Assembly (NCBI GenBank): GCA_905178155.1
Contig: CAJINV010000011.1
Location: 1,819,216 to 1,883,215, forward strand
Reading direction: 5' to 3'
Origin: Amoebophrya sp. A120
Lineage: Eukaryota > Protista > Dinoflagellata
Length of the DNA: 64,000 nucleotides
Below are positions 154 through 63,977 of this stretch, one piece after another (within the stretch, counting starts at the first letter, position 1; every line of letters begins with the position of its first letter). The position numbers and the translations under genes are program-made. Under the pieces are notes generated by a model, which had not been told where the DNA came from, did no database searches, and saw only the letters and a program-made list of their open reading frames with translations.

Positions 154-3100
154 GTACATCCCCCGAGTTCAACACCGAGTTAATCACCTCGACAAACTGC
201 TCGTTCACGATCTGCGTGTCCGTGAAGAGAAACACTTGCGTTTTCCCCTCCACGCCAGACCGCTTCAAAACCGTCTTGATATCGTCCCGGAACTCCACCA
301 TCCCGTACCCCTTTGCGACTTCAATCTGGTAGCATCCGTTGTCGTTTGCGAAAGCCGCTAATCTCGCAGACGACTGCCTTCCGGACCCGCCGACCCCGAG
401 CAGCAGCATGTTCCCCTGCGGTTGGTTTAACGTGCGGTTGATCCGCGCGACGTGCTCGGCGAAATCGAGGAAAATCACCAACGGCATGGGTGTGGGGAAC
501 TGGTTGTTGTAATCGTCCAAGTAATCCTCAAGAACTTCCACCATCTTCGTCAAGTCCTGAATCTCTTCGTAACTTCTGCTGTCCAAGGGTTCCATGAATT
601 CCGCGAAGATTAGCCTCTCGTTGTGGAACACCTCGGCGACGTCGAATGGGGCGAAGTTGGTCTTGATCTTCTCCTCTAATAAGTTCTGCAGCCACGTCCT
701 GTCCCCAGCGTCGATCAAGCGATCGCCGAACACCCGGGACACCTCGTGGCACCAACAGCGAAGAAGCACGATCGGGCCCTCGACTTTTTTCGGCAGGAGG
801 GCGCACACGCCCATAAACACTTTCCAGATGTCGCGGAGGTTGAAGAGGTAGTGGGCGCGGGCCGGGGTGGGCAGAAGATCGAGCAGAACCTGATGAACAA
901 TGAGAATGGTTGAAATCGAAAGTTGCTATGCGGATTCGCATAGAAGACGAGGAATTGGAAAAATGCTTTGTCATGCAAGAAGACAGCTACAGACGGTCTA
1001 CTTGAAAATCAGTTTCGCATTTTCTTTTTACCTTGTTAAACACTTCTTTCTGCGCCTCGACCAGTTTCGGTACAAGTGCCTTGACGTCTTCCGGAAACGG
1101 GTCGAAGAATTTGTTTGCGATCGTCGTAAACATCGTCGTAATCGCCGCCCCCGTGAAATCGCTGTACCCCAAAACGTTGAAGTGGCGCTTCAGACGCTCC
1201 GTGATGAACGTTCGGCCGCCTCCTGGGGTTCCCATGCTGCCCGCAACCAACATGTCAATGATTTGGAAGTAGGCAAGCTCTTTTCGGTTGTACCTGGTTG
1301 TATTCGAGTTCTACCGACTTTTGCATCACAAATTCGCTTCTCGCACAACAAAACAGCCGGCACATCGCATTCAAGCATCTTCACAGATCTCGCTGTTCTT
1401 CAAATAAACTTCGCATCACAAATTCGGATTCAGACATACTTTTACTTGCAATGCATGAAGGGATGAACTACTCACTACCATCCTTCGTGGTCAAACCACT
1501 GCCGGAGCAGCTCGATCGGCGGCTGCGCTCCGTAGAATTCCTTCTGTGGCATGTTCAGATCGTCCGTGAACAACACCATCTTCTTGCCCGCCGGCGGGCC
1601 GTAGACCCCCCTTCGCCGTTTCTCCAACTTGCTGTCGATGAAGTCCTGCACTTGGTTGACCTGCGTCTGCGCGGAGAACGCGAGATTGGTGGTCAGGAAG
1701 TTACCCGGGGCGTACTTCTGGAGGTATAAAGACAGATTCACCGTCTTCCCCGTCCCCGTGGGTCCGCAGCACAGCACGTGGCTGTCGTTTTCCAAAAGGA
1801 TATGGAGCTCTCAACTGTTACATTCTCAACTGTTACATGAAATTTGTAATGCAAGAATGGCAAAAGTGAAAGGGAAAAGCTTGCTCCTTTTGCATTACAG
1901 GTTTGGAGCAGATTACAATGCTATCTAGCGTGTCGAGAACTTGTCATGCGGAGAAGGTTTGAAATTGTGAAAAGTGATAGCGTTTTTGCATGACAAATCA
2001 TGTAACAGTTGAGAATGTAACGTTTGAGAGCCCCATAAAGGATTTTAAACGCGTACGTCATCCGGATGGAATCCAACGAGGGGACGACAATGTTTTCGTA
2101 CTTCGCGGTTCGCGGGACCTCAAACGCCGGGATGGTGTCCATCCACGGGACCCACTTCCCCGTCGTGATGTCGAACATGTAATCGTAGAGGTTGGCGCCC
2201 TCTTCCGGAATCCCGTCGAGTTTGAAGTCCATATGCCTCGTTGGGTATTTATGCATTGCAAATATGTCTGGGTCTGGAAAGCGCCAGGTTTGCCATGCAT
2301 GTTTTGCATGACCCATAATGCCTGTAATGCATGGCCTAGCGTCACAGATTTTTAGCAGGCTTCCTGATGCCTGTTCCGCATGACAAATGCCCTCCCCGCG
2401 TAGCACAAACTGGACTCCTCTTGTTGGTCATGCAATACAGATTTTTTTGGAATCCAAAGTTAGCATCACAAGTTCCAACTTTCCACACGCAGACCCGGAC
2501 AGTTTTGCACTTCATAGTACTCCCAGGTCGGGTCGTTGTGCGCGGCGTGCTTCGCGGCCCACTTCTCGTCCTTGCTATGAAAGTGCACAACTCCCCCTCC
2601 CCCTCATTTGGATGGCATCCGCGGCAACACAAGTCCTGGCACAGATGGAGCTTTTGCACGACAAATTTACGACTGATTGTAGTGCTGTTTGGGCTTCCGA
2701 AATTTGTCATGCAAAAAGTGCCACAAGGCAGCGAGAGCGACTGGCTTTGGTATTTTGCATGACAAATGAGGGGGAGGGGGAGTTGTGCACTGTCATACTT
2801 GCCGATGGTGGTCCACAAGTAGTCGTTCAGCTGCTCCCGGTTGTTCGCGCCGGCGAGACTCCCGCCGACCGACCAAACAAGGCAGAAGAGAAACAAGTCC
2901 CCGAAGATCGGCTCCAGGTCCTCCACTTCCTTCTTAAAAGCGTCGATCAATTTCAGCTCGGTGGGCCAGTAGGCCGCGTAAAAGGTGTTGAGCAACCGCA
3001 TGCAGCTGCAGGCGAGGTTTTGCGCAGTCGTGGAGCAGACCTCCCCGAGGGATTTCTTGATGTAGAAAATGGTCGTGTCGAAAATGTCCGTCATGTAGGT

Positions 3101-6100
3101 CTTGAGACGCTCCTGGTAAACCGGCTTGAACTTGAGAAAGGTTTCAGGAATCGACTCCACGTAGGACTGGATCAAAGGGTCCAGGGTAAGCGACTCGGGC
3201 TCCATGTAGATCATACCGCACCGGGAAACGGTGGCCGGACTGGCGACCTCTAAATCCTCAACTTCGAACATCATGCGCATCTGCGGGGTCAGACCGATGA
3301 TCTCACCAGAGACCAGGCACAGCTTCTTGTTGTCGTCCAGGACCTGAAATTATTTGTGAATTATGGGTACTGATTCGTACTGAATTGATCTTTGATGCTC
3401 TTTGATTTGATGCACGACGAGACACTCATGATTTGCATTCCCGCGAGGAGCGCAATGATGTTGTGAGTCTCATCATCTCAACATGCAAACACATAGATAC
3501 GCAAACCAAAGGAAGTTGTGCTTTGTGTATTCAAAAAATATAATCCTTCCTAGTACCGTGTTCATCGACTCGATCCACAGTGCATCCACTGGTCCGTTAT
3601 CCCACAGAAAAAAGCTGGCAGGGCATATTTGTAATGCAAAGATAAATACACAGGAAAATCTGTCATGGGCGGCCTCATAGCATGCTATTTAGGATATCCA
3701 ATACATTTTTTTTGTCTATTTATTTTTGCATTACAAATATGACCTGCCAGTTTTTTTCTGTGTGATATCCGTCGAAGATGATCCAGTGGTGATCCGGACT
3801 CTCTGCGTCCCGAACCGCCACTATCAAAAGGAAAAATCCCCCCTCCCCATATCGAAGTGGAAATCTGTGATGCAGGATTTGGATACACAAATCGGATTTG
3901 TCTTGCAGTAAGGCATCGCAGCCAGATCCTCGGCCTAGGTCGGGGCGTATAGGTCTAGTTGCTTAGCATTGCAAACGGGTGTCCCCTAGGCGCAACAGCA
4001 CGCCAAATCGATTCCATAATGGTGCGGAAGCCTTTGCGCTTGTCTTCTTGCAAGACAGACGTGATTTGTGATCTCAAATCAGCAACGCAAATTTTCGGAA
4101 ACACACCTTTTCGATATGGGGTGGGGGGATTTTTGCATTCAATAGCCACACGGATCTGCTCACTCCCGATCCCGTCGGTCCACTCATGCGTGAGCTCGTC
4201 GAACGCCCCGTAAATTTGCGCCTGCGTGATGGATTTTGGATTGAGGATGTGCGTTTGCGTCTTCTGGTAAGGCGACTCGTCGTTCCTCTCGGGGGGGCAG
4301 AGCACCGTGCAGGCCTTCTGCAACACCCGGTAGTTGCAGGTCTTACCCCCACCGGTCGGGCCCACCAACATCATACCGTGCCGCACTTGGATCATGTCGA
4401 AGAGTTCGAACATCTTCTGGCAGAAATACGGTGTGGGCTGGAGCTTCGACTCGACCGCGCACTCGTTCAACTTCTCAGCGAGCTGCCCGTAGTCCACTTC
4501 AGGTCGGTCGGTGCCCGGGAACAGATCCAGAATGATGTTCTCGAACAGGGGTAAATCGTCCCTCAAAAATTTCGGCACGTTGACATCCCGTAGGGCCCGG
4601 AGAAGGATTTGGAACTCCTCCATGTCCGGGAAGATTCGCTTCGACCGCCCGGCCGCCTCGATCACCGTCTTCACGGCACGCATGCCGTAATCGTAGTGGT
4701 CCTGGGAGGAGAGCTGTTCGGACGCGAGCTTAAAGGTGGACACCATCTTCTTCGCCATGGCGCGACCACCGGTGAAACCGAAGGCGTAAAACATGATCTC
4801 GCCAATCAACGCGTAATCCGGCACCATCATCGCGCAGGGGCGGAAAAGAGCGGAAAGGTTGTCCGGAAGTTCCGTGCGACCGGCGTAACTGTGAAGTGAT
4901 TTTAGGTGCGAAAAATCTACAAGCATCTATTCTTGTTAGAAACCGTTTTGTTCTAAATTTTAGGCCTTATTTTGCAAGAGACAGACCGATTTGCATTTGT
5001 GATGAAATCATATTAGGCAAACAGCAACACAGTAAACAGTTGTTCATCTTACCCTGGGTTCATCGTGATAAACACGTTGAACGTCGGTCGCATCGCGATA
5101 AATGAGCCCTCGAAATCCAGTTCCAGCACTTCGCTGTAACTGTTCAGCTGCGACTTCCCGCCGAACAGAATCAGCAGCTGCTGCGCGATCACGGACAGCA
5201 CCTCAATGTAGATCCGGTTGAACTCATCGAAGCAGCACCAGGCCCCGCACACGGCCAGCCCCTTGAAGAACTTCCCGACCATGATGTAGTCCATCTCCGG
5301 ACTGCAGTTGAACACGACGCACTGCTTCGCCAACGCTTTCGCCAAATCCTTCGTCGACTCCGTCTTCCCCGTCCCGGCCGGCCCGGCGGGGGCGCCACCC
5401 AGGTTCAGGGACTGCGCGCCCATCAGCGTCATGTAGCACATATCCGTCAACGCGGTGATCACCAACCGAAACGTGTTCCCCAAATACTCGTACCCGTACG
5501 GGAAATTTGTCTGCACCATCCGGACCCAGACGTTTTCGATCCCCGTGTCGTCCTCCTCCCAGTAGTAGCGTAATTGCGAAATCCACTCGAACGCGTCCTT
5601 GCTGTCGACCTTTTCCTCGGTCAATCGCTGTACGACATCCTTCGCGTGCACGTCGATGACGACGAGAGCTCCGATACTATGAACTGCAAAAGTATCGTAC
5701 TCGTATAAATGCATTACAAATTTTCTCAGCATGAGAAATGAAATTTGTAATGCTGATTTGCCTTGACAAAGAAATTTGTAATGCAAGACCTGCATTTATA
5801 CGAGTACGATACTTTTGCACAGCATAGATACAGGTGCGCTGCAACTTCGTGATCTTCCCTCGGACCAGCATCACCAGGCCCATCAGCTGCTCGCCCAGCT
5901 TCTCTATGCATTGCAAAAGTATCGCACTAGTAGAAATTGCAATACAAATTGGCTCAGCATTACAAATTGAATTTGTAATGCGGATTTGCCTTTAGAAAAT
6001 GACCTGTAATGCATAAAGGCAGTTAGTACGAGTACGATACTTTTCTTGCCCAGGATATTCTCCCAGTAGCCCGTGACCATGTCGCCCTCAATCGCCTCTT

Positions 6101-9100
6101 CCACCTCGTTATCAACTGCAAAAATGTCTGGGTCTGGAAACTTGTGATGCTGGATGGCGTCTCATGATGAGGCCACAAGTGCTGGCTCAGCATGACAAGT
6201 TTCTGAGCTTCTAGGTGTTGCCTATTCTGCATGACAAACTGCGTTTTTGCATCACAGAAAAATGATGAAGCTGTTGGGTAACGTGCATGACAGATTTGAG
6301 AGTCATGCCAGACAAGCATGACAAACATGCATTCTTCCAGACCCAGACATTTTTACATTTGATACTCGTCGGTCCAGTGCACCTGCGAACCGTTCAACAC
6401 GCACTGCCCGGGGTGCTCGAGCACCCACTTGGTCCTTTCCGTGTCCACATACGTCTCGATACTGGTTTGCATCACCGCGCGAACTGAGTTGCACATTTCC
6501 TTTTCTAAATTCCCCATCCACTCCTCCACGTTTCGGTCCTTCGTTTTCACCTCCTGCGCACACACGATCTTCTCGCCCTCGGAAGAGAAGATCTCCAACA
6601 CCTGCATCTCCTCCCCGAATGTCACCCGCTTGATGTTCTCGAACACCTTGCACAGGAATATCCCGTGTAAAAACATTCCCACCCCAGAGCTGCATGCCAA
6701 AACAGTTTATCATGCGGAGCCCTATGAGAAGCATTCTCTCTTCGTGTTTTGAAATTTGTGATGCGAGAATCAGCGTTCTATGATAGATCTGTGATGCTGC
6801 TGACCTACCTAAAACAGGACTACACTACAAGGATCGAAACTTGTCATGCCAAACAACCAAAGCTGGTTGGTTTGTCTAGCAGGTTTCCCATCTTGACTCT
6901 GGTGTGGGGACGTTTTTAATCAGGATAAGGAACGGCTGCACCCGGGTCGGGTCTTTTGTCTGCGAGAGAATTTCCAGCAATTCGTCGTTGGAGAGGAAGT
7001 AAAATCGCGCGAACGCGTCGCGCTTCGTCTGCAGGTAGTCGTCCAGCCCCTTCTGGACGAATTCTAGGTCGTTGTTCGCGTTCCTCCACTTCTCCAACAG
7101 CCCCTCGGTCGATAGAATGTTCAACGCGCCCGGGTTCTTGTGCACCCGGCCCATCCAGTGCCGCCACAGGTGGTCCACCGCCTTGAACTTTTTCCCCTCG
7201 GTGGGTAATTGCTTCATGATATCCGGCGAATCGAAAATTGGCTGCAGATACATCCAGGCACGTTGTACCTTCAGCCACATGTCAATGCACTCGGACACGT
7301 ACAGCAGCTTCACCGCCCACTCCTCGATCTCCTCGATAAACGGTTTGTTGAACGGGGAAAATTGAATCGCCTGCGTGAGCACATTCTGCTCGTCGAGAAT
7401 GGCGTTGACCTCCTCCGAGCCCTTGAGGATGTAGGTTTCCGTGGTCCGGTAGAACTCCTTGCAATCGAACTCGATGGGCTCCCAGTCCGCCTTCATCTTC
7501 GCCAACTGCTTTTCGATCTGGAACTCCTTTCCGGACCGGTCGCCGATGTCGCTGATCTCGGTCACGGTGTTCATCAAACCTAGATCGATGAAGTTCTGCA
7601 AGGAGAAATTCTCCATTTCCGGATCTATGGTCACCCCCACCAGCTCGCTGATCTGGGTCCAGTGTCGCTCCTTCATACCCTCGTTGCGCATCGCGACAAT
7701 TAAAGGCACGTACTGTTGGAAATCGGCCAGCTCCTCCTTGATCTGTTCCGTGATCGCCAAGACCCCCTTGTAATCCTCTCCGCGAGCCGTGAACGCCTTG
7801 GTGGCTTTGAACAGCAATTTGATGCCGGTGTTGGTCCGGTCCTCGCAGTCCTTGGCCTCGATCGCGTCGAACTTGCCGGAAAAGTACGCTTTTTTCTTGT
7901 TCTGCCAGTCCGACGCCTGCTTCCACAGGATCGAAAAGGGTTCCCAGTCGCGCTGCATCACCGTCAGGTTGCCGTAGTCGTGCGGCTCCATATCCAGTGC
8001 AGATATGTCTGGGTCTGGAAAGATGCAACTTGTGATGCCGCCTTTGGATCCTACATAACATCTGTATTGCATCAACAGCAACAGAGGTGCAGTTTTTGCT
8101 ACGCGGAGAGGGCATCTCTTATGCGGTATGAGCATCAGAACAAAGCCCTCGCAGAATCTCTGGTGCTAGGGCATGCATCACAGACCTCTGGGGTCTGTCC
8201 TCGTGGGTCAATGGTCATGCAAAATCTGCATGACAAACTCCTGCATTCTTCCAGACCCAGACATATTTGCAATGCATATTCCACGCCGAAGAGTGACTCC
8301 TTCAGGTTGAACAGCTTCGAGGTCTCCTGGTTGGATTTCAAACGCTCGGAGATGCTCTCGGCAGAGTCGTTGATGGACTGGGAGTCCGACAGGTCGGTGA
8401 AGTTGACGAAATTTGCAATGTCCTCTTCCAACTCGTGCAGCGTGTTGTCGAAGTGGAATTGCTCATCCTGAATCTCGCGGAAGAAGCTCTTCATCGTGTC
8501 CGCGTGCTCTTGCTTCACCTGAAAGTAGAAGTTTGTCAACATGCGAAGAGTTTTGCAAATGTGCAGTTGCAGGCAGACCTGCTTTGCGAGCACCATGAAG
8601 GTAGGTGTATGCAAACATGAGGCTCTTCAGTAGCACCAGTTTCATTCAACCGCTGCACTACTAGCAGATGTTGAACCTCCTCCTCCTGACAGAAAGACCA
8701 TAACCAATTGCATAGATATGCATTTCGATTCATTTTCCTATTGAATTACCTCTGCAATGGTGTCCATGATATCCTTGGTTCCCTTGAAACAGCTCCATTT
8801 CAGGTCTGTGGCGTCTTGTGGCACCTTCAGCCTGAAATCTTCGACAAGGATGTCGTAAACGTCGAAAACTTTTTTTGCTTCCCCATTATGCATTGCAAAA
8901 GTATCGTACGTAGTGTAAAATGTAAATCGCATGGCAAATTTTTCAAGCAGGAAAATCAAAATATGTAATGCTGAATTAGCTATAGAAACCAGATCTGTCA
9001 TGCTGTACTGCGATTAGTACGAGTTGTACGATGCTGTTGCATTCGATACACTTCGAGCTTTAGCAATTCCCCAGGCACGGTTTCCATGTACTCCTTGATT

Positions 9101-12100
9101 TCGGCCAGTTCTTCGACGTCCTTTGGCGCTTTCTTCAACGAGAGCTTAATCTTCGTGTACTGTGCCATCAGCGTCTCGGCCATCTCACGATACCTGCACG
9201 GATTTCATTTGTGCGTACGAGTGAACAAACTCTACTTTTGATGGCGCCGAGCACGACGAGATGTTGAAGATTGATGATGTTCACGTACCGACTTCAACTT
9301 GTATAAATGCAAAAACAGATTTGAAATGAAAACACAGAAAAGCAAAGCGCAGCAGACAACTGTTATTACCTTTTATCCAGCAACTTCAGCAGCTCTCCCG
9401 CGATGCTGTTGTGCTTTTTCGCGAAGAGATTTCTGGCCTCCGAGAGCGAGATTTCGTACAAGCCTGCCGTGATGCTTTCTGGCAGGGATTCCATAATGGC
9501 GTGTTCCTTCTCCTGCTCCTCGTGTATGTGTTTTGCGATGTCCTGCACGGACGCGGGGTTTTCCTCGTCCTGCTTGCTCGCCACAATTTCTGCCACGTCC
9601 TGCTGAAGCGGCTCGAGGTACGGAGTGATCAGCTTCCTGTAATCCTCCAAACGGGCGGCACCGTACCTGGTTTTATTTTGCAGGGTCAGGGATTTTTTTC
9701 GAAAAAACTAACAAGGATATGAGTTGTACTACATCATACATAATGTGCTGAGCGGCTGTACTAGTCGACATTTCATTCCCCTTCACATTTTTTTTCTAAA
9801 TCGAGATCAACATGATCGGAAGCAATCCTAAGCTGCAATACGGTTGCATCATTTTCTCTAATCTTTTCTTGACCGCGACCACCTTCTCGTCCGACGGGTG
9901 CGTGGTCTCGATGTTTTTCGGCGGGTCCGTTTTTCGCACGAATTGCGACATCACCAGGGGTTCTGGCTGCGAGATGTCGGCCATCGTGACGAGCGCGGAG
10001 TCGATGACCTCCGTGACCATGGTCAAAAAATCCGCCCCGTTGGCGCTGTACGCCGCCTGGAACGTGTTTTGCTCCTTGTTTTCGTTTATCAAATGCAAAA
10101 GTGTCTGGGTCTGGAAGCTTCTGAGACTTGTCATGCACGTTTTGCATACGCCATGATGTCTGTGATGCATGCCGTAGCATCACAGATTGTTCGCGGGGTT
10201 CTTGATGCCTCTTTCGCATGACAAATCCAAATGCCCTATCCGCGTAGCAAAAATTAGAATTACATTCCCTTTGCTACTCATGCAATACAAATTCTTTTGG
10301 AATCCAAAGGCAGCATCACAAGTTGCATTCTTCCAGACCGAGACACTTTTGCATTTGATATCGTTCACCTTCAGCTCCATCAGGAAAATCCCCGCCACGT
10401 CGTCCCTGGAAAGCTATGCAAGGAAAAAACTGTGTAAGTGTAACTTTGTGTTGCAGAAAATGCAAAACCGTTGCACTCGTCATCCTGGACATGCATCAGA
10501 GGTAATTTCCGTGCGTGTTCTCACGTACTAGCTGCGCATGACAGGTTTTCTGTGTCATGCAGAGCAAACCTGTGATGCTATTCCCCCAAGAAACTTACAC
10601 TTACACAGTCTTTTTCCTGGATAAAAGCCCGTTCAGGATCATTTCCGGCGTCGGTGTGCGGAAAGCGACTTCCACCTCCTTCAGACTCTTGATCGTGCAC
10701 TTCGTCGGCGTGTAGTTCACGATCTTCTGCTCGTACGCCTGAATGCTGGCGCGAACCACCTCGAATATGCTGGTCTCCATGATGAAGCGAATCATGGTGA
10801 GCAGCTTCTTGATCTTGCCGTATTTGTACGTCTCAGCGTTGGTTTCCTTAATGGAATACCTGAAATTGGGAACAAAAACAAATTGCGATCATTTTGCTTG
10901 GGACTTCATACATGCACTTGACCTCTTTTAGGCACGAAACCGATGTTGAAATCTGCATACTTACACAACGGAAAGCGAAACAAGTAGGTCGCGAGCAAAC
11001 TCCTATAATACCATCCCTTCTGCACGTCTTCAAAATTGGTGACCACCACCTTTTTCAAGTCCAGCACCCACTCCTTACACCTGCTCAGCATCGCGTTTAT
11101 GCTTTGCGTCTGCAGCGTTCGGAACTGGTCGATCCGCGCGTTGCGCGGGAACTTGGTCTGGAAAATCTTCGTGCCGTAGGATTTCTCCAGCGCGAGACAG
11201 GCTTCGCGGATCTGCACCAACGTCGTTACCACTTGTGGCTTGACGTAGAGCGAGGAGAAGCAGAACTGCGCAAATAGGTTCGTGAAATTGTATGCCGGCA
11301 CGGGGTGAAGCGCGTAGAACTTCGCGGGCTTCCTAAATGCGTTCACCGACGCGTAGCTCGAGTCCACGTCGGGCGCGCCCGTTATGGCCTGCTCCTCCAT
11401 TTCGGCGAGGGGGGACAACCCCTTCGCCTCGCCGGTGACTAGTAGACACAGCCGGTTCAACACGCGACCGTAGTCGAGTTTTACCTCGTTGACCAAACTT
11501 TCCACGAAGTGATCCATGCCGTTGCTGCACAGCTCGGCGCTGGACCGCGCGTTCTTCTTCAGTCTAGCGACTTGGTCCACGTTCAGTGTGGAGATGCCGT
11601 CCGTCGGCACGTTGTCCACGTAGAAAAGAAACTTGATGTGCGAGGCCACGAGCTGTCGCTGGCGGAAGGCGTTGGCGACGCGGTCGGCGTAGGCCACCGG
11701 GTCCTCGCCGTCGAAGAAAAAATCTAAGCGGGACAGGAAGCACGGCGTCTCGTCGTCGTACCACAGTCCGTAGAAGTAATTCGTGTCGTCCCCTTCGTAC
11801 TGGTAGATCACGCACGCCTCAAACGACCCGTCCGCCTCGCCGCCGACGCGCAGACCCTTGGCCTTCAGCCCGGTGCGCTTCTTGCTGCCCTTCGGCGGCT
11901 TGGGAATCAGCGTCATCCACTCGCGCGGCTTGCGGACGTCGTACTCCGTGTCGTTATGCACTGCAAAAGCATCGCACTCGTATTGCAATTTATGCACTAT
12001 CTTTTTCTTACGGTAAATCAGCATTACAAATTCTACTTGTTGTTGTTTTCTCATACTGAGGAAATTTGTCATTGTCATGCATTTGTACGAGTACGATACT

Positions 12101-13276
12101 TTTGCAGTGCATAGTCGTCGAAATCCAGCAGGTCAAAATCGTTGGAATCCAACTGGGACTCCTTAATGCCCTTGGGGTATGCAGAGAAAAAAATTTTTAC
12201 TCGGAATTAATATACACGTTCTGTGCCACCTGTTGCTACTGAAAAAGCCGCTGGCGATTGAAGGTCAAACAGGATAAAAATGCAATGGAAAATGCAAAAA
12301 ATGTGCACACGACACAGAACGTCGAATTTAGCATTTTATCTTTCCCCTTCCATACTTTCCTGTCGAGCTTCACTTTCCGGTTCCGCAAGCTGCGGTTGCT
12401 TTCCTGCACGAAGTCGGCCATACTTATGCCCCGGTCGCGGAACAGCTCCTCGGGGTTCAGGCTCGCGAAGTACCGCTTTTGTCGCTCGACCGTCACCTTG
12501 CGGGGCTTGGTGCCGGGGGCGTGCGCGTACACCTCGATAACCTTCGGCTATGCAATGCAAAAGCATCGTACTCGTACTAATTGGAGCTATAATGCATTGC
12601 AAATTTTTTCTTAACGTAGATCCACATTACAAATTCAATTCAATTTGTAATGCTGAGCCAATTTGCATTGCAATTTATACTAGTACGATGCTTTTGCATT
12701 GCATATCGGCTCGATGGAGCCGATTTCTACTATCTGGGAATCCGGATACGCCAGATCCAATGCCTTCCCGTCGATTACCGTGTCTGTACCTGAAAGATGA
12801 CATCATTTTTCACGATGCTAAACCTGAAACGCATCCATAACCTAACCATAACCAAAACTACACGTACATCTACGTGTACATGTAGGTGTACATGTTGTGC
12901 CGCATTACAAATTCAATCTGCCATCCAAACACATCAAACCTTATCCTTGATATTCTGTACTTATCAACTTATCCGCGGAGCTGCGTTCCTGCCTGCCTTC
13001 GCCGTTGAGCGCCTTTATCTTGGTTCGCCCGGCGGCCTGCAGCTGCTCCAAATACGCGTTGCTGCGGCTGCGGCTCTCGTCGGACATGCGAAAGCTGCTG
13101 GCGGCCGCGCTGCCGTGCGTCCGGATGGGGCCCTCCCGCCAGCCCGGGCCCATGCGGCACCCCTCCACGTCCTCCTCATTGTGCTGGCGCAGGACCTCGG
13201 AAAAGATGCCCCGCTGCCGCGACTTCGGTTGCGGCTTCGCCGACGAAGAGGACGCTTTCGACGTGGGACCCTCCAT
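146..13276 (-). CDS. DNAH1: Axonemal inner-arm dynein heavy chain, DNAH1-like (multi-exon; 3' part runs off the left end of the window)
   Basis: Spliced exons give the N-terminal PGxKPRKVxVERQKRY and [14 protein letters not shown] motifs typical of DNAH1-type chains, the linker ([29 protein letters not shown]), AAA1 [22 protein letters not shown]2 [17 protein letters not shown]3 [16 protein letters not shown] and AAA4 [13 protein letters not shown] introns at about 890-1031, 1294-1478, 3344-3556, 4889-5052, 8519-8749, 9194-9369, 9667-9841, 10860-11011 and one ending ~12790 (donor not located). Most of the others are TIR introners. Start codon and exact ortholog are uncertain. Confidence 0.95.
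1801..2037. mobile_element. TIR introner (non-canonical intron) in dynein gene
   Basis: ~40-bp TIR tatggagctctcaactgttacattctcaactgttacatga; TSD aagga (1796-1800 and 2038-2042); removal gives FKIL|LEND in frame. Confidence 0.93.
2250..2516. mobile_element. TIR introner, tgcaaatatgtctgggtctggaa family
   Basis: tatgcattgcaaatatgtctgggtct ... agacccggacagttttgcacttcata; TSD gtatt/gtact; removal gives TWEY|PTRH. Confidence 0.88.
2576..2797. mobile_element. TIR introner in dynein gene
   Basis: 35-bp TIR tatga(a/c)agtgcacaactccccctccccctcatttg with 1 mismatch; TSD cttgc (2571-2575 and 2798-2802). Confidence 0.93.
3598..3767. mobile_element. TIR introner splitting the AAA2 FDGPVD motif
   Basis: ~50-bp imperfect TIR tatc(c)cacagaaaaaa(g)ctggcagg.catatttgtaatgcaaa; TSD tccgt; removal restores [14 protein letters not shown]. 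Confidence 0.93.
3822..4144. mobile_element. TIR introner in dynein gene
   Basis: tatcaaaaggaaaaatcccccctccccatatcgaa ... ttcgatatggggtggggggatttttgcattcaata; TSD gccac; removal gives [17 protein letters not shown]. Confidence 0.9.
5678..5826. mobile_element. TIR introner, tgcaaaagtatcgtactcgta family
   Basis: TIR tatg...tgcaaaagtatcgtactcgtataaatgca; TSD gatac; removal gives [14 protein letters not shown]. Confidence 0.93.
5905..6057. mobile_element. TIR introner, tgcaaaagtatcgtactcgta family
   Basis: tatgcattgcaaaagtatcgcactagta ... tacgagtacgatacttttcttgcccaggata; TSD ttctc; removal gives YWEKLGEQL. Confidence 0.88.
6110..6364. mobile_element. TIR introner, tgcaaatatgtctgggtctggaa family
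   Basis: 30-bp TIR tatcaa(c/a)tg(c/t)aaaaatgtctgggtctggaa; TSD ctcgt; removal gives HWTDEVEEAI. Confidence 0.93.
6659..6927. mobile_element. TIR introner in dynein gene
   Basis: tatcccgtgtaaaaacattcccaccccagag ... ctctggtgtggggacgtttttaatcaggata; TSD aggaa; removal restores [13 protein letters not shown]. Confidence 0.92.
7991..8278. mobile_element. TIR introner, tgcaaatatgtctgggtctggaa family
   Basis: tatccagtgcagatatgtctgggtctggaa ... ttccagacccagacatatttgcaatgcata; TSD ctcca/ttcca; removal gives FGVEPHDYG. Confidence 0.92.
8887..9048. mobile_element. TIR introner (degenerate), tgcaaaagtatcgtac family
   Basis: tatgcattgcaaaagtatcgtac ... gtacgatgctgttgcattcgata; eroded TSD cccat/cactt; removal gives LLKLE|GEAKKVF. 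Confidence 0.8.
10087..10360. mobile_element. TIR introner, tgcaaa..tgtctgggtctggaa family
   Basis: ~31-bp TIR tatcaaatgcaaaagtgtct(g/c)ggtctggaag; TSD tcgtt; removal gives ELKVNENKEQ. Confidence 0.93.
10415..10623. mobile_element. TIR introner in dynein gene
   Basis: tatgcaaggaaaaaactgtgtaagtgtaa ... ttacacttacacagtctttttcctggata; TSD aaagc; removal gives [11 protein letters not shown]. Confidence 0.92.
11955..12113. mobile_element. TIR introner, tgcaaaag(c/t)atcgtactcgta family
   Basis: TIR tatgcactgcaaaag(c/t)atcg(c/t)actcgta; TSD gtcgt; removal gives LDFDDTEYDVR. Confidence 0.93.
12549..12705. mobile_element. TIR introner, tgcaaaagcatcgtact family
   Basis: TIR tatgcaatgcaaaagcatcgtact(c/a)gta; TSD tcggc; removal gives [11 protein letters not shown]. 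Confidence 0.93.
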
Positions 13277-15498: not shown

Positions 15499-15680
15499 TA
15501 GAAACGCCATAAATAAGATTCCTTGCTCTTCGAAAAGTAAAACGACAACCATAAAAGACTTACTATACCACTATTGCCTTGCGTTAACTAAATATCCTGA
15601 TGGGGTTCAACATGCCGTCGCGTAAGTGCATTACAAAGGCTTCTATGTAGCATTTTCGGAGTAGCGACGGAGCGAGGAGT

Positions 15681-18788: not shown

Positions 18789-19011
18789 TATAAAAGAAGT
18801 CGCCCGCTTGTTGTTCGTGAAGAAGTTTCCTGCACTTTGGCAGGTTGTAGAAGTCGAGATGATAGTGGTCGTTTTTGTATAGTTGTTTTTTACGCCAGTT
18901 GTAGCGTATACTGTCAGTCCGCAAGTTGCTCGTAGAAAATAAAAAATAAACCCGTTCAAAATCTTTCCTGCATAGAAACTTCTGAATTGATAACCCCCCG
19001 CTGACGTGCCC

Positions 19012-59262: not shown

Positions 59263-61406
59263 TTATTCTTGGTCCCGCATGTACACTTTCAAAAACCCGG
59301 TGATGTTACCTCTACAGACCGGACACCGTTTCTGGAAGTCATCGATCATGAAGTAGTCGATCATCAAGTAGTCGGCGCAACTCTCGCAGAATGGCGCGTG
59401 TCCGCACGGATTGACTGCGAAAATCGGAGGACGACATGGTTCGTAACACACGTGGCACTCGGGCTCGCTTTTTGCGCGCTGCAGCTCCACTTGGACCCCA
59501 ATTTGCGCACAGAGATCCACGCAACGGCCCGCAACCGAAGAAATATCGGACTCCATTCCGGCTTGGGGGTCGCCCAAACTGCCTCCCACGCGACTGTCCC
59601 TCTGCCGCCGGCGGATGAAGTGAGCCACGTAGGCTGCTATCGCATTCCGGCCGAGCATGCGGACGGTCTCTGCTGGATTGTCGCCCAATAACATCTTAGC
59701 AACCTGCTCCACGTGGATCGCTTCTTCCTCGGGCGCCTCAGCAGTACGTGCGTCGAGATTGGCCTCGTAACACTCGAGATATGGATTGCAAATATATCTG
59801 GGTCTGGAAATTTGTAATGCTTGTGCGAAGCCAAACTGGCTGTCGAGTTTGTTTGTATAATGCATCTTGCGCAAGAGCAAGATGACCTTCGCTTGTTTGT
59901 ACTTATCGCAAGAACGCGATTTCTCTCTCGGAATACGCACATTCACGGAGCAAACAAACTTTGTTATGCTTGCCTGCGAAGTGTGGGTATGCTGTTGCAT
60001 TGGCCTTGGCGATCATCCGAGATTTAGCATTACAACTTCCCAGATCCGGACATCTTTGCAGTGGATACGAGCAGGTCCTTCACGATGTCACCACTAGAGT
60101 CCGAATCTGTGTTTCGTACAGCAGCCGAGAGTGCGGTTTCGCCCGTCCCACTCGTCTCGTCGAACTGAATCTCTTTGTCGTGCGGTCTGTGTCCACGACT
60201 TGTTAATTTGCCCGACTCATGCCATCTACGCAGCGTTCCTGAAGTGAGGTTTTTCACTGCTGCCGCTGCGTGCGGGAGTCCGCAGGATGTGGCGTAAGCC
60301 AGCATTGTGTGGACCGGCTCGCTCTTGATGGTGTTGAGGAGCAACTGCACCACTTCACGCCGCCCGCTGAGCACGGCTGCAACAAGCGGCGTCACTTGCT
60401 TGGGCCCGTGTTTGGCATTCAGGTTTACAATTTTTCGCAACCCCCAGGGCTTTTCGCCGGGTCCTAGGGGACGCACAAAAAACTTTTCAGCAGAAAATTC
60501 TTTCCTGCGTTTCTCCATGAGCGAATTTCGTCTCTCTGCCAACATCAGGCAAATCGAATTCGCCGAAGGCGGGTTGCTGGTGTTGCTGTTGCTGGAGCGA
60601 TTAATGTCCTGGAGCGAACCGCTGGGTGGGTCACGCACGCCTTCTCCGGAACGTGTTTGTTTGAAGAGTTTGTTCCACGGACGGACTGGAGCGAGCGCCT
60701 CACTGTCAAGCTGGGCTAGATGAGCGGAGCTGGAGTGCGCGCTCGATGAATGGCGGATACGGAAACGCAGGTCTTCCGCTTGCTCAGAAAGTATTTGTTT
60801 GTAATGCTGGCGGCGATTTTGCTCGTTTTCGAAGACGACCGGATCCAAATCGAGGAGCTCGATCAGGCGCAGGTAATCGGTTCCAGAGGACTCGACTGTT
60901 CCGTCACCCGCACACAGCTCATACAATTCTCGTTCGAGTTGTCGTTCTGCGGAAACTCCAACGTAGTTTTCCATGCATTTGAAGACGCGACTCCAGCTAA
61001 TGCCGCGCTCCGAGTTGTCGCTTTCAGAGTCGGTTACGAGAGCGCTGCTGCTGCGGGTGGGCGGGGCGAAGGTGCAGGAGCCGGCGGCTCGTCCTCTCGT
61101 CGGACGAGTGTAGCCCGGGAATAGGCCCAAGGGCGGTGGCTTCTTACCGTCAGAGGTGATGTCATGCCGTTGCAGCATGTGCAATTCGAGGCATTTACGC
61201 GCGTCGACGCGAAAGAACGCTTCGGGCCGAAAGCACCGGCTGCACTGCGGACAAGTAGCCTGATCCGACTCGTACGCGACTGGCCGGTAGCACTGCATCC
61301 CGGGTCGACGCCTTAATAGTCCTCCGCCCGCGGGTGCACTGGAGGCGTCCGTCGGCGACGGTTCCGGAGGCTGCCTGCGAAGCCCCTTCGACTGCCTTTG
61401 CCCCAT
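59263..61406 (-). CDS. Ankyrin-like repeat + C-terminal C3HC4 RING protein (paralog 2), putative E3 ligase
   Basis: MGQRQSK start; CPQC...HMLQRH; TPLVAAV; GETALSAAV; CHVC...PCGHAPFCESC...CPVCR. Extensive similarity to paralog 1. Confidence 0.85.
59780..60067. mobile_element. TIR introner in RING paralog 2
   Basis: tatggattgcaaatatatctgggtctggaaa ... ttcccagatccggacatctttgcagtggata; TSD cgaga/cgagc; removal gives KDLLECYEANL. Confidence 0.9.
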
Positions 61407-62592
61407 ATTGAAACACAAAAATCGCTTGCCTTTATGTTTATTCTACCGACAAAATTATTATTTTACAGTTGTTCGTTAGTGCTCGCAATTGGCAATTTTT
61501 TTTTTTTCAGCAACTGCAACGAAAAATAACAAATACAAAAACTGTACGACGAGAGACACGAATTAAGGTGGGGTTTTTATTCGGTCGACTTATCTAGTAA
61601 TCGGGATTCCAAAAAAAACCTGTCCTTGCGTATTCATTCATGATGTGCTCGAAATCAAATTGGAAATCGGAAATAAATTTACGCATTTTTTCAACTCTCG
61701 ATGTCGGCGAGCGAAACGAAAAGGACAACGACATGATGTTCGATAAGTGTCAAGATTTGGGGAAATTGCACTCAAGCAAAAAAACACACAGACACGAAAA
61801 CATGGCACGAGTGCCACGACCAATTTTACCTAGTTTGAATGAATGGATGAGAAAGAACCGACCGAACTTTGAATTTTGCAGCCTTTTTTGTTTTTGTTTT
61901 GGGTGGATTTCAATTTCGCGGTAAAATGAAGGTTAAACTCAACAAAAAACAATAAACAGACCGTAGATTGTCGGTGTACGCGAAGCTTGTGGCAACACAA
62001 AAAGCAGCACCTGCTTTTCAGTGTCGTTGCTGCGTGGTGCGATCCCTCTCAGAAGCAAAAGTCAAATTCTGCCCTCGCTCTATAAAATGTATGTCATGAA
62101 GCACGAGCGAAATGTGGTGCGCCCCGGCTGCAGCAACTATCTTGTTTTTCTTTGTCGTTCCCCCCATCGAACGACGCGACTAGCACGTTTTCCGCTAAAT
62201 GTGCAGACACAACGAGGGCAACTCGAACTCTCGAACAACAAAAAGTAGGGCCGACCCCCACGATTGATCATTCCATCGATCGAATGAAGCGACTACTCAC
62301 AGAAACAGCGTAAAGAAAGTAGAGATGGATTGAAATCCGTTATGTGAAGTTCTATTTCATGAAAACAACTTTCGTCTTGGTGCAACGGCACGACAACGAC
62401 GATTATTTTTTTACGCCGCGTTCATGAAAGACCAAAATAAAAATTATTCAATTCGTCTTGCAGGGGATTGTATCTAATCACAAGTTGTCGTACTTCTACT
62501 TGCACATCCACATGTACATGATGCATATGTTTACAAAATCTAATTAAATTTTCGCGTGAAATCTGAAATCTGAAGTGCCTTTATCAAGCACT

Positions 62593-63977
62593 TCAACAAT
62601 CACCAAGCAGCCGATCCCGTATCCCTTGCACGGTGGCTCGGTACTCCGGCACGGCTGACGGCTATCGACTGCAAATATGTCATCTGGGTCGTCTGGAATT
62701 GGTAGATCGGGAGAGTTTATTTCTGATGTCAGGCAAATTGTACAATGACCCGGAATGGTGGTCTCGGTGATGCATGCTCTAGCATTAGCATTAGCATTAG
62801 CATTACAGGATTTGGATTTGCGAAGATCTTGCATGAGGATAAATGCTTTCTCCGGACAGCAAATATTTATCAGAGCGCCCAGGACCAAAGAGCATATTTG
62901 CAATGCATAACAGCATGTCCCCTGCTATAGTCCCGGTTTCAAAATCCACGTCGTGGCGCCCTTTTAGCGTTTCTACGTCTATTTGCAGCAGGTTCCCTAG
63001 CGACCGGAAGGCCGCTTCCTCCGTCCGCGGTGCTGCGCTTGTTCGTTTGTCCTCTGCCCCCTCGAGAAAATGCGTAAACCAGGAATCCACATTCTCCTCC
63101 TGCGCAGCGTGCTGTGTGGGGGTCCCGAAAAGCGGGCTTTCCTCTTCCGTGTGCATCACGTAGGCGGAACGGTCGAGGAGGTAGATCCGCTATCCTGTGT
63201 AAATAAAGCGCCCCCGCGACCCCAAAGCCAGCACGATGTGATAATTCTATATCTGCTAGGTAAGTCCACAAGTTTATTTGCGATTGGCGCATGACGGATT
63301 GATGAGATGCAGATTTTCAGATTTGCATGACAAAACTCTGGGGTCGTGGGGGGCGTTTTTACTTCTCTGGATCATATCCGCAAAATGCACATCCCCACCG
63401 CAAAGCTGTCCGTTTGTCGTGGGTAATAGTGCGCCCTGAGCACAAGTTCCGGAGCACAGTACGTGGCGCGCCCGCACCCTGCGTCCTGCGAACACGAGAA
63501 GAGCCGGTCTTGAGGCAGTGTCGTTGTAGTAGTATGCCCCCCTTGGTCTTCTACTTCCTGGTGCTCCTCCTGACCCTCAGAACTACTACAAGGAGAAAAA
63601 TTATTTTCGTCGTCCGCAGGGTTCGTGTCGCAGAACCCTAGCCGCCCCTCCGCCCCCTCCGGTCGTTCGGCTCTGGAAGATGAACCGCTGCTGCATTCCG
63701 AAGATGTTGCGGCAACACAGGGAAGCTGAGTCCTCGTCGGAAATAAATTGCTCTCGTCACGACAAGAACTTGTGGCAGCTGCCAGGTCGTGATTGCAGCG
63801 GCAATTTAATAAGACCGCAGGCGAGTTCTCTACCAATGAGCTGAAGTTATATGGTGGCGCGGGAGCGGGCTGGAGTTCGAAGCAGCCCGGAGTCATTTTC
63901 TGCTGCAAAAATGCGTCCTCGGCTGGTTCTCGTGGCGGAGCTCCCGTGGCCGAGGCGGCCTGGAGTTGTCCTGTCAA
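62593..63977 (-). CDS. Hypothetical protein, 3' part (start probably beyond the window)
   Basis: Three exons join in frame after removing two introners: ...ATYCAPEL...DSFAVGMCILRIYLLDR...GDMLSAVPEYR...GDC*. YCAPE and DSFAVG resemble kinase subdomains VIII-IX. Confidence 0.6.
62663..62909. mobile_element. TIR introner (degenerate) with an internal (TAGCAT)4 run
   Basis: tatcgactgcaaatatgtc ... gagcatatttgcaatgcata; TSD acggc/acagc. Confidence 0.82.
63191..63376. mobile_element. TIR introner
   Basis: tatcctgtgtaaataaagcgcccccgcgacccca ... tggggtcgtggggggcgtttttacttctctggatcata; TSD tccgc; removal gives ILRIYLL. Confidence 0.88.

What the first reader, a model, noticed from the sequence alone, without database searches (positions are those of the whole stretch)
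960..63330. One short motif, TGT(A/C/G)ATGC and its complement GCAT(T/G/C)ACA, recurs inside introners of unrelated TIR families
Seen in sequence: atttgtaatgc, ttgtcatgc, ctgtgatgc, gcatgacaa, gcatcaca and gcattaca occur repeatedly and in both orientations inside nearly every element (e.g. 1843, 1942, 1988, 2703, 2757, 3628, 3728, 5711, 5744, 6143, 6190, 10130, 46595, 59812), although the TIRs differ. The motif also occurs in some GT-AG introns (968, 1323, 1414). Inference: it may be a shared cis-element, either a transposase-binding site or an orientation-independent intron-definition signal for a non-canonical splicing factor.
Basis: partly seen in the sequence, partly recalled or inferred. 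Interest (0 to 1): 0.8.

Follow-up and report, generated by a model that had tools for sequence, protein, structure and literature searches.

The report
Shared inner box of introner transposons
A short DNA word repeated inside nearly all the small hairpin transposons that act as odd introns in this genome is real, sits at a fixed distance from both element ends and resembles the ends themselves; it is likely a docking site for the still unknown enzyme that moves these elements, which would give a handle for finding that enzyme.

Summary
TGTVATGC occurs 77 times in the window, against 6.9 expected. Of these, 59 lie in 24 hairpin elements covering 5.5 kb, none in 8.3 kb of dynein exons, and 4 in GT-AG introns.

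The elements begin TAT and end ATA, carry 5-bp target duplications, and are skipped exactly in transcript-like contigs. They match the published Amoebophrya A120 introner elements.

A public assembly gave 126 further TSD-flanked copies. In all, 135 of 137 elements hold the word, at 14 copies per kb.

- **Position.** The word is the core of a box about 17 nt long, AAATTTGTVATGCAAA. The first copy starts 33-45 nt from each end in seven families with different arms.
- **Letter 4.** It is almost never T (5 of 483).
- **Conservation.** The box is as conserved as the arms.
- **Likeness to the ends.** The box resembles the terminal box TAT[C/G]NA[A/T]TGCAAAA. The families therefore form one superfamily and are not unrelated.

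Box orientation is neutral with respect to transcription. Inverted neighbours do not covary, and arm mismatches show no G-U excess.

Best reading (0.45): subterminal binding sites on duplex DNA for the mobilising enzyme. An RNA-level role in splicing (0.3) remains open. I found no description of the box in print.

The parts
1..153 (.). Right part of a TAT...ATA element cut by the window start (same family as 6659-6927); box at 68(+)
   Evidence: The transcript-like contig piece starts at 154 (table 8).
1801..2037 (.). Element, family CTCTCAACTGTTAC, TSD AAGGA; boxes at 1845+, 1892-, 1942+, 1988- (two internal hairpins)
   Evidence: Its removal plus one TSD fits the contig length.
2250..2516 (.). 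Element, family F1 (GTCTGGGTCTGGAA), TSD 4 of 5; boxes at 2323+, 2378-, 2463-
2576..2797 (.). Element, family GTGCACAACTCCCCCTCCCCC, TSD CTTGC; boxes at 2705+, 2757-
3598..3767 (.). Element, family CCCACAGAAAAAAGC, TSD TCCGT; boxes at 3630+ and 3728-, each 33 nt from its end
3822..4144 (.). Element, family ATCCCCCCTCCCC, TSD GCCAC; box at 3866+ (45 nt from the end)
5678..5826 (.). Element, family F2 (GTATCGTACTCGTA), TSD GATAC; boxes at 5711- (flipped, 34 nt from the end), 5746+, 5777+
5904..6056 (.). Element, family F2, TSD TTCTC, right arm decayed; boxes at 5957-, 5974+, 6005+
   Evidence: contig length 409 nt fits
6110..6364 (.). Element, family F1, TSD CTCGT; boxes at 6143+, 6190-, 6229-, 6249-, 6285-, 6316-
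6659..6927 (.). Element, family CCCGTGTAAAAACATTCCCAC, TSD AGGAA; boxes at 6757+, 6790+, 6842+ (none within 70 nt of an end)
7991..8278 (.). Element, family F1, TSD 4 of 5; boxes at 8031+, 8175-, 8228-
8887..9048 (.). Element, family F2, no clear TSD; boxes at 8964+, 8996+
   Evidence: read by eye. Joints at 8887 appear in DNA contigs.
10087..10360 (.). Element, family F1, TSD TCGTT; boxes at 10129+, 10161+, 10177-, 10216-, 10313-
10415..10623 (.). Element, family CTGTGTAAGTGTAAC, TSD AAAGC; boxes at 10536-, 10553+, 10571+
11955..12113 (.). Element, family F2, TSD GTCGT; boxes at 12021-, 12073+
12178..12354 (.). TAT...ATA interruption with weak arms and no exact box; borders set by eye and not verified
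   Evidence: No solution was found.
12549..12705 (.). Element, family F2, TSD TCGGC; box at 12646+
27084..27337 (.). Element, family F1, decayed TSD; box at 27146-
   Evidence: No RNA check was made.
40286..40588 (.). Element, family F1, TSD 4 of 5; boxes at 40322+, 40376-, 40420-, 40459-
   Evidence: No RNA check was made.
40703..40959 (.). Element, family GCACAAC..CCCCCTCCCCC, TSD TTCCC; box at 40854+
   Evidence: read by eye
46557..46859 (.). Element, family F1, TSD 4 of 5; boxes at 46593+, 46710-, 46736-, 46776-, 46810-
   Evidence: RNA-like contigs skip 308 nt from 46552 to 46861.
56683..56962 (.). Decayed F1 element (left end CAT, TSD CGTTG) with no exact box, still skipped in RNA-like contigs
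   Evidence: (joint 56676 to 56962, skips 285)
59780..60067 (.). Element, family F1; boxes at 59813+, 60027-
   Evidence: RNA-like contig skips 293 nt.
62663..62909 (.). Element, family F1, decayed; box at 62800-
   Evidence: RNA-like contig skips 252 nt.
63191..63376 (.). Element related to 6659-6927, TSD TCCGC; box at 63325-, next to the right arm
   Evidence: RNA-like contig skips 191 nt.
890..1031 (-). GT-AG intron of the dynein gene with one box (969+)
1294..1478 (-). GT-AG intron that holds a decayed F1 arm and two boxes (1323-, 1413-): a former element
12790..12953 (-). GT-AG intron (borders set by eye) with one box (12902-)

Best explanation
TGTVATGC is the core of a box about 17 nt long (AAATTTGTVATGCAAA) that lies 33-45 nt inside both ends, and again further inside, of the TAT...ATA hairpin transposons with 5-bp target duplications that form the non-canonical introns of this genome. 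It is likely a binding site, read on double-stranded DNA, for the still unidentified enzyme that recognises the similar box at the element ends and moves the elements. Shown: the enrichment, the confinement to elements, the fixed distance from the ends, the strong conservation, the near absence of T at letter 4, the likeness to the terminal box, and the exact removal of the elements from transcripts. Inferred: several inner boxes, in either orientation, would load copies of a transposase or integrase-type protein. That protein also binds the terminal box next to the cleavage site. The inner sites would help pair the two ends, as subterminal repeats do in other cut-and-paste transposons. The hairpins the boxes can form in RNA would then be a by-product.
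For: (1) Specificity. The window's elements hold 59 hits against 1.56 expected, and 8.3 kb of exons hold 0. 135 of 137 TSD-flanked elements hold it, with 478 copies in 34136 nt.
(2) Position. The first inward copy starts 33-45 nt from the end in 174 of 214 arms of family F1 (178 of 214 have an inward copy within 70 nt). The same holds in six other families with different arms: F3 6 of 6 arms, F5 4 of 4, F6 3 of 4, F4 2 of 4, F10 2 of 2, F9 1 of 2. Family F2 has the copy flipped, at 34-47 nt in 21 of 26 arms.
(3) Constraint. Mismatch to the subfamily consensus is 5.1% and 3.7% in box letters, 21.8% and 23.8% in other interior letters, and 6.4% and 7.5% in the arms (n=54 and n=28 copies; Fisher p about 1e-65). 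Letter 4 is C 264, G 144, A 70, T 5.
(4) Likeness to the ends. The terminal profile TAT[C/G][A/C]A[A/T]TGCAAAA aligns with the box profile at one offset with score 0.47, against 0.34 or less at 19 other offsets. The terminal box abuts the 5-bp duplication, which is where integration chemistry acts.
(5) Strand neutrality. There are 87 sense and 91 antisense copies in 53 elements of known coding strand. F1 orientation against the gene is 19 to 21. 203 of 343 neighbouring pairs are in the same orientation and cannot pair with each other in RNA.
(6) No sign of selection for pairing. The free letter matches between inverted neighbours in 39 of 101 F1 pairs, with about 41% expected. Arm mismatches are G-U type 35 against A-C type 34 on the sense strand.
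(7) Two decayed F1 copies with 0 and 1 exact box are still skipped in RNA-like contigs.
(8) Private changes are not clearly depleted in boxes (OR 1.2, p=0.38; OR 0.60, p=0.07), as expected if the constraint acts on lineages that keep transposing.
(9) Gozashti et al. 2025 (PMC12130899, passages) report TIR-flanked Amoebophrya A120 introners with integrase-like ORFs, which is a candidate enzyme class. That a 5-bp duplication fits such enzymes is recalled knowledge.
Against: Farhat et al. 2021 (passages) found no transposase in A120 and argued against transposase-driven mobility. The box persists above chance in GT-AG introns (4 in 1632 nt against 0.35 expected), including an intron whose arm has decayed but which keeps two perfect extended boxes (1294-1478). 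This could mean selection after insertion. In the second subfamily, private changes tend to be fewer in boxes (OR 0.60, p=0.07). Inverted neighbours have sharp preferred spacings (16 and 47-48 nt) and form stems in predicted RNA folds. The tests in points 5-8 are indirect and low in power. The coding strand could be called for only 53 of 137 elements.
Confidence: 0.45

Rival explanations
1. RNA-level role. The boxes would act in the transcript, either as stems of small internal hairpins that help the intron fold so that its ends meet, or as sites (as duplex RNA) for the factor that recognises the paired terminal boxes and cuts out these non-canonical introns.
For: The elements are removed from transcript-like contigs exactly at TAT/ATA plus one duplication, so the terminal box is also part of the removal signal. 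Plus/minus neighbours peak at 16 nt and 47-48 nt and form stems in the predicted folds, with z-scores of -11.9 and -7.4. Boxes survive in GT-AG introns derived from elements. In subfamily 2, private changes tend to be fewer in boxes, and are fewer in arms (OR 0.60, p=0.07; OR 0.44, p=0.002). Farhat et al. 2021 (passages) report loss of U1 and propose structure-based splicing.
Against: Box orientation is random with respect to transcription (87 to 91), so a reader of single-stranded RNA would see two different words. 203 of 343 neighbour pairs are in the same orientation. The free letter does not covary (39 of 101 against about 41% expected). There is no G-U over A-C excess in the arms (35 to 34). 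T is excluded at letter 4, which a plain stem does not explain. Decayed copies with 0-1 exact boxes are still skipped.
Confidence: 0.3
2. Inherited scaffold without present function. All families descend from one founder built by tandem duplication and inversion of a unit of about 32 nt, and the box is only its best-kept remnant.
For: Same-orientation copies are spaced 31-33 nt in 71 of 203 pairs. Box positions are fixed within subfamily consensuses. All families share ends and TSD length.
Against: Everything else in the interior and the middle of the arms has diverged beyond recognition between families, while the box is kept at the same distance from the ends. Within F1 it is 4-6 times better conserved than its neighbours, with one free letter that still excludes T. 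That is the pattern of constraint and not of drift.
Confidence: 0.1
3. Nested insertions. The plus/minus box pairs are the ends of tiny independent mobile elements that landed inside larger ones.
For: Pairs such as 1845/1892, 1942/1988 and 2705/2757 look like short inverted-repeat units of 45-60 nt. From memory, the word starts like TGTNR termini of integrase-type elements.
Against: The pairs have no flanking duplications (reading). Copies sit at the same positions in all members of a subfamily and at a fixed distance from the outer ends in different families. Many copies are unpaired tandem copies.
Confidence: 0.04

Closest known systems
Introner elements / non-canonical introns of Amoebophrya sp. 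A120 (Farhat et al. 2021, PMC7789003; Gozashti et al. 2025, PMC12130899)
   Same: Inverted repeats start with TAT, then about seven variable letters, then at least three A. Direct repeats are 5 bp and lengths are about 150-320 nt. There are many families, the elements lack GT-AG and they are removed from mRNA (passages and figure legends; here). The window's elements are members of this kind.
   Different: The passages, supplement text and tables I could read describe only the terminal repeats and call the families distinct. They mention no inner box at a fixed distance, no internal repeats and no likeness between inner and terminal boxes. The supplementary figures (S19-S25) could not be seen.
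Subterminal transposase-binding repeats of cut-and-paste transposons (P element internal binding sites, En/Spm 12-bp TnpA motifs, Ac/Ds AAACGG repeats, IR/DR elements of Tc1-like transposons); recalled, not looked up here
   Same: There are short terminal repeats plus several copies of a short word inside the ends. The copies run in both orientations, start a few tens of bases from the termini, and are kept in non-autonomous derivatives.
   Different: No cognate protein is known here. The elements are very small, so the boxes fill most of the interior. The same ends also define RNA removal. The family-specific middle of the arms has no known counterpart.
Nonconventional introns of Euglena (Nomura et al. 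2025, PMC12501133: code 5'-N3CDG ... CH'GN5-6|R)
   Same: These are non-GT-AG introns whose ends pair. They are abundant, and their removal depends on short words near the ends (abstract and introduction).
   Different: The Euglena code is not met here. Letters 4-6 are CAA, GCA and the like, not CDG. Euglena introns are not described with TSDs or an internal repeated box.

Membership tests
Amoebophrya A120-type introner elements | Inverted repeat at the intron ends starting TAT, about 7 variable letters, then at least 3 A | tested here: met
   The terminal profile of 274 arms is T A T [C/G] N A N T G C A A A A. The published definition is in the passage seen.
Amoebophrya A120-type introner elements | Short direct repeat (5 bp) at the two borders | tested here: met
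   137 unique elements have a perfect 5-bp duplication, 11 of them in the window. The legend of Fig. S19 reads 'direct repeats of 5 bp'.
Amoebophrya A120-type introner elements | Removed from mRNA without GT-AG borders | tested here: met
   Contig length arithmetic for seven elements and five joints that skip the element plus 5 nt. Caveat: the runs are labelled 'RNA?' as a guess. They also skip GT-AG introns at CT..AC borders, whereas the DNA run's contigs run through them.
Amoebophrya A120-type introner elements | Repeated in many copies and families | tested here: met
Non-autonomous TIR DNA transposon (MITE) with subterminal binding repeats | Terminal inverted repeats, target-site duplication of fixed length, no coding capacity | tested here: met
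   lengths are 109-481 nt (median 262), too short for a transposase.
Non-autonomous TIR DNA transposon (MITE) with subterminal binding repeats | A cognate autonomous element with the same ends that encodes the transposase | not tested
The only lead is from the literature.
Non-autonomous TIR DNA transposon (MITE) with subterminal binding repeats | The protein binds the subterminal word | not testable with these tools
   This needs a binding assay.
Euglenid nonconventional introns | 5'-N3CDG ... CH'GN5-6 followed by an exon purine | tested here: not met
   Element ends are TAT[C/G][A/C]A. Letter 6 is A in 97% of F1 arms and G in 1%. The code comes from the abstract seen.
Integrase-type TIR elements with TGTNR...YNACA termini (Ginger-like; recalled) | Element termini TGTNR and a 4-bp TSD | tested here: not met
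   The termini are TAT...ATA and the TSD is 5 bp. Only the inner box begins TGTVA. Gozashti et al. also state that the A120 elements lack Ginger termini and TSDs.

The most novel reading that the evidence does not exclude
One end-recognising machine serves both lives of these elements. A transposase-derived, box-binding protein would load on the inner and terminal boxes. It would not only move the DNA but also mark or cut the folded transcript at the same TAT/ATA borders. The box would then be the shared address label of a spliceosome-independent, transposon-encoded intron-removal system in a lineage that has lost U1.
Probability: 0.07. Interest if true: 0.92.

Novelty: new variant of a known kind. 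Interest (0 to 1): 0.55.

Why it matters
Amoebophrya-type non-canonical introns are very numerous. Farhat et al. 2021 report 29,850 repeated introns in strain A120. What moves them and what removes them from RNA are both unknown.

A conserved inner box of about 17 nt, shared by families whose arms differ and related to the terminal box, has three uses:
- It unites the families into one superfamily.
- It gives a precise bait (oligonucleotide, DAP-seq, pull-down, one-hybrid) for finding the protein that reads the ends.
- It gives a natural-variation test: does intron retention depend on the number of intact boxes? That would tell a DNA role from an RNA role.

It would also improve detection of decayed elements and so improve gene models.

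Tried and rejected
**Orientation bias.** In the window, all 8 asymmetric F1 copies point the same way in minus-strand genes. In the wider sample the split is 19 to 21, and it stays balanced at stricter thresholds. It was rejected as a general rule.

**Covariation of the free letter.** In the window about 13 of 17 inverted pairs matched (my reading). In the wider sample this was 39 of 101 for F1 and 19 of 33 for other families, which is not above chance for F1.

**RNAalifold on 54 F1 copies.** It found only the arm stem, with a covariation term of +0.09 and 2 of 25 pairs showing double changes.

**Purge of end-like TAT.** TAT in element interiors is at 0.92 of expectation and TATGC at 0.91. The lack of T at letter 4 is therefore the box's own specificity.

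**Helical phasing.** Peaks at 20, 31-33, 39, 59, 64, 85 and 124 nt fit only partly and come from a few subfamilies. Not used.

**Exact exon map.** The stretches 7986-11007 and 11949-12954 were not solved.

**Candidate enzyme in the window.** The ORFs at 15684-19130 and 19015-20727, between 495-bp direct repeats that hold boxes, have no Pfam hit. The 1149-aa ORF has no homologue and no PDB match.

**Pfam scan of long ORFs.** A scan of 138 ORFs beyond 13 kb found only a 3'-5' exonuclease domain, ankyrin and RING, all on the minus strand.

**Access limits.** The genome is not held. Records behind the loci are not searchable. There are no earlier notes on this genome.

**RNA runs.** No RNA holder is listed for the stretch. 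Raw RNA runs X9 and X10 put only 91 and 3 reads on the window, all partial, so they say nothing about starts, strand or small RNAs.

**Literature search.** A string search for the four words together with 'Amoebophrya' found no paper that holds both.


Full report
**1.
TGTVATGC and its complement occur 77 times in the window (36 plus, 41 minus). The 100 dinucleotide-preserving shuffles gave 6.9 ± 2.7 with a maximum of 15. The three variants are among the most frequent 8-mers of the window.

**2. What the carriers are.**
The left 13.5 kb holds a minus-strand gene whose exon translations I read as a dynein heavy chain (my reading, no family search was run on them). The reading frame is broken by inserts that all begin TAT and end ATA. 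They have 20-55 nt inverted arms and, in most cases, a perfect 5-bp direct repeat outside the ends.

Contigs of runs X1 and X4 behave as transcripts, although the tool labels them 'RNA?' as a guess. They skip GT-AG introns at CT..AC borders, whereas contigs of run X5 (kind not on record; it behaves as DNA) run through them.
- Between the exon pieces that end at 5672 and start at 6928, the contig holds 409 nt. This is exactly what remains when four elements and one copy of each duplication are removed.
- The same holds for three elements between 1794 and 2798, where 262 nt remain.
- Five more elements are skipped as element plus 5 nt at 46552/46861, 56676/56962, 59774/60068, 62657/62910 and 63184/63376.

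These features match the published description of introner elements of Amoebophrya sp. A120. That description gives an inverted repeat starting TAT, seven less conserved letters, then at least three A. It also gives 5-bp direct repeats and non-canonical introns of about 240 nt (Farhat et al. 2021, PMC7789003; passages, figure legends). The organism name is my inference from this match. No tool named it.

**3. Where the word lies in the window.**

| Compartment | Hits | Length (nt) | Markov-1 expectation |
|---|---|---|---|
| 24 TAT...ATA elements | 59 (10.8 per kb) | 5455 | 1.56 |
| Nine GT-AG introns of the dynein gene | 4 | 1632 | 0.35 |
| Dynein exons | 0 | 8268 | 0.54 |
| Rest of the window | 14 | 48645 | 5.0 |

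- 23 of the 24 elements hold at least one copy.
- A 25th element, found later, is a decayed F1 copy at 56683-56962 and holds none.
- Five further GT-AG introns (1001 nt) hold none.
- The GT-AG intron at 1294-1478 contains a decayed arm of family F1 and two perfect extended boxes, so it is a former element.
The word is about 38 times commoner in the elements than their own composition predicts, and about 37 times denser than in the rest of the window.

**4. A wider sample.**
One scan of metagenome contigs with the arm pattern of the commonest family (F1...TGTCTGGGTCTGGAA) returned 161 loci (124 kb). Together with the window they give 137 unique elements with TAT...ATA ends, paired arms and a perfect 5-bp duplication. 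The median length is 262 nt.

They fall into 12 arm families: 107 F1, 13 F2, and 1-3 each for ten others. The sample is biased towards F1 by design. The other families came along in the flanks.

135 of the 137 elements hold the exact word, with 478 copies in 34136 nt, or 14 per kb. The mean is 3.5 exact copies per element, and 6.6 if one mismatch is allowed.

**5. Anatomy of the box.**
- **Extent.** The word sits in a longer consensus, (A)AA[T/C][T/C]TGTVATGC[A/T][A/G]A. This is clearest outside F1, as AAAATTTGTVATGCAAAA.
- **Position, inward copies.** The first copy, read from the end inwards, starts 33-45 nt from the end in 174 of 214 F1 arms, with peaks at 34 and 41-43. Across F1, 178 of 214 arms have an inward copy within 70 nt. 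The same 33-45 nt window holds in F3 (6 of 6 arms), F5 (4 of 4), F6 (3 of 4), F4 (2 of 4), F10 (2 of 2) and F9 (1 of 2).
- **Position, exceptions.** F2 has the box flipped, at 34-47 nt in 21 of 26 arms. F7 and F8 have a one-letter variant (TTGTGTTGC) at that place and exact copies further in. F11 and F12 have none near the ends.
- **Further copies.** Neighbouring copies in the same orientation are mostly 31-33 nt apart (71 of 203 pairs), with further groups at 39 nt (22) and 20 nt (10). Plus-then-minus neighbours peak at 16 nt (a tight hairpin) and at 47-48 nt.
- **Letter 4.** It is C 264, G 144, A 70 and T 5. All other letters are nearly fixed.
- **Likeness to the ends.** The profile of the 274 termini is TAT[C/G][A/C]A[A/T]TGCAAAA. 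It matches the box profile at a single offset with a score of 0.47, against 0.34 or less at 19 other offsets. At that offset ..T.TG..ATGCAAA. is shared, and the terminal TAT corresponds to TTT in the box.

The families are therefore not unrelated. They share a terminal box, a TSD length and an inner box, and differ in the 17-28 nt between the two boxes and in the rest of the interior.

**6. Constraint.**
The two largest F1 subfamilies have 54 and 28 copies.

| Letters | Mismatch to consensus, n=54 | Mismatch to consensus, n=28 |
|---|---|---|
| Box letters | 5.1% | 3.7% |
| Free letter (letter 4) | 35% | 19% |
| Other interior letters | 21.8% | 23.8% |
| Arms | 6.4% | 7.5% |

The box against other interior letters gives a Fisher p of about 1e-65.

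Changes seen in one copy only are a rough proxy for mutations after insertion. They are not clearly rarer in boxes (OR 1.2, p=0.38; OR 0.60, p=0.07). In the arms they are rarer only in the second subfamily (OR 0.87, p=0.51; OR 0.44, p=0.002). The proxy is crude, because saturated columns hide singletons.

**7. DNA or RNA?**
- **Coding strand.** For 53 of the 137 elements the coding strand could be called from the frame that opens when the element and one TSD are removed. This gave 10 of 10 correct calls in the window.
- **Orientation.** In those 53 elements the word is in the RNA sense 87 times and antisense 91 times. F1 elements lie in either orientation, 19 to 21, and the balance holds at stricter thresholds.
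- **Pairing of neighbours.** Inverted neighbours do not match at the free letter more than chance in F1 (39 of 101, with about 0.41 expected).
- **Arm mismatches.** Mismatches in the arms are G-U type 35 times and A-C type 34 times on the sense strand. Selection for RNA pairing should favour G-U.
- **Decayed copies.** Two decayed F1 copies with 0 and 1 exact boxes are still skipped in RNA-like contigs.
- **Points for RNA.** The elements fold into very stable hairpins in which box pairs close internal stems (z = -11.9 and -7.4). Boxes also persist in GT-AG introns derived from elements.

**8. Explanation.**
I commit to the following reading at 0.45. The box is a subterminal binding site, read on duplex DNA, for the enzyme that recognises the related terminal box and carries out cut-and-paste with a 5-bp staggered cut.

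A site read on duplex DNA fits these observations:
- the box works in either orientation and in tandem arrays;
- it has a free central letter with one exclusion;
- it resembles the terminus;
- it is conserved among propagating lineages but is allowed to decay in old copies that are still spliced.

What remains inferred is the protein, the binding and the effect on mobility. Gozashti et al. 2025 (PMC12130899; passages, table rows) class short A120 families as 'TIR DNA, unknown superfamily'. They also describe TIR-flanked A120 introners with ORFs related to LTR-retrotransposon integrases. That would be a suitable enzyme class. That such enzymes make 4-6 bp duplications is recalled knowledge.

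The rivals are:
- an RNA-level role as folding modules or as duplex-RNA sites for the removal machinery (0.3);
- an inherited scaffold without present function (0.1);
- nested mini-elements (0.04).

Chance or composition is excluded.

**9. Comparison with known systems.**
- **Membership.** The elements are members of the published A120 introner elements. All four defining features tested were met.
- **Closest working analogy.** The inner box works like the subterminal repeats of P, En/Spm, Ac/Ds and IR/DR transposons. These are recalled and were not looked up. Membership in any transposon superfamily cannot be tested without the enzyme.
- **Euglena.** The splicing code of Euglena nonconventional introns (Nomura et al. 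2025, PMC12501133; abstract and introduction) is not met.
- **Other genomes.** Earlier notes of this scan describe hairpin-bounded, exactly removed introns in other dinoflagellates. None mentions an inner box.

**10. Novelty and limits.**
I found no description of the box in any of the following:
- passages of the two Amoebophrya papers;
- the text of Farhat's supplement, which held legends only, so figures S19-S25 could not be seen;
- rows of Gozashti's tables;
- a full-text search for the word strings together with 'Amoebophrya'.

The limits of this work are:
- the wider sample is dominated by one family and one assembly;
- copies of a family are not independent observations;
- coding-strand calls rest on a codon table trained on one gene;
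- five of the nine dynein GT-AG intron borders, and elements 8887-9048, 12178-12354 and 40703-40959, were set by eye;
- the runs used as transcripts are labelled RNA only as a guess.

Noticed in passing
window 14988-15482 and 21611-22105; ORFs 15684-19130(-) and 19015-20727(-): A direct repeat of about 495 bp, nearly identical in its two copies, brackets 6.1 kb with two long minus-strand ORFs of 1149 and 571 aa. Each repeat copy holds two boxes, and a third lies just beyond the left copy. The ORFs have no Pfam hit, and the 1149-aa ORF has no PDB match or homologue. RNA-like contigs give no depth over 16-20 kb, and DNA contig depth there is about 1.6 times that of neighbouring unique DNA.
   Followed up: partly
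window: F1 elements at 2250, 6110, 7991, 10087, 27084, 40286, 46557, 62663: All 8 asymmetric F1 copies in the window have the same orientation (more minus-strand boxes) in minus-strand genes. In the wider sample orientation against the coding strand is balanced, 19 to 21. This local one-sidedness is unexplained.
   Followed up: partly
window 56683-56962: A decayed F1 copy whose left end reads CAT instead of TAT, and which has no exact box, is still skipped (element plus 5 nt) in RNA-like contigs. Removal therefore tolerates loss of the first T and of all exact boxes.
   Followed up: partly
window 53523-53900: A cluster of inverted and tandem repeats built from units like CGAAATATTTTGGAGCT. Its 8-mers (AATATTTC, ATATTTCG, TATTTCGA) are among the commonest in the window, and RNA-like contig depth there is near zero.
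   Followed up: no
window 6004-6670, 5337-6003, 10006-10672: Summed depth of RNA-like contigs over element-rich bins is about 2 to 10 times that of most exon-dominated bins (for example 1208 against about 50-220 in X1). Element sequence is therefore abundant in those assemblies, as unspliced or excised RNA, or as copies from many loci collapsed together.
   Followed up: no
window 35811-35910: An assembly gap of 100 N.
   Followed up: no
window 62780-62807: A short tandem run (GCATTA)n inside element 62663-62909 ends in a box (GCATTACA). The box core appears to have been expanded by slippage.
   Followed up: no
window 13.6-64 kb: All four ORFs with Pfam hits (3'-5' exonuclease domain at 27189-28664, ankyrin at 56913-58289 and 60033-61442, RING at 59266-60012) lie on the minus strand. 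134 of 138 long ORFs scanned have no Pfam hit. This fits the one-directional gene blocks and the many unassigned proteins reported for Amoebophrya.
   Followed up: no
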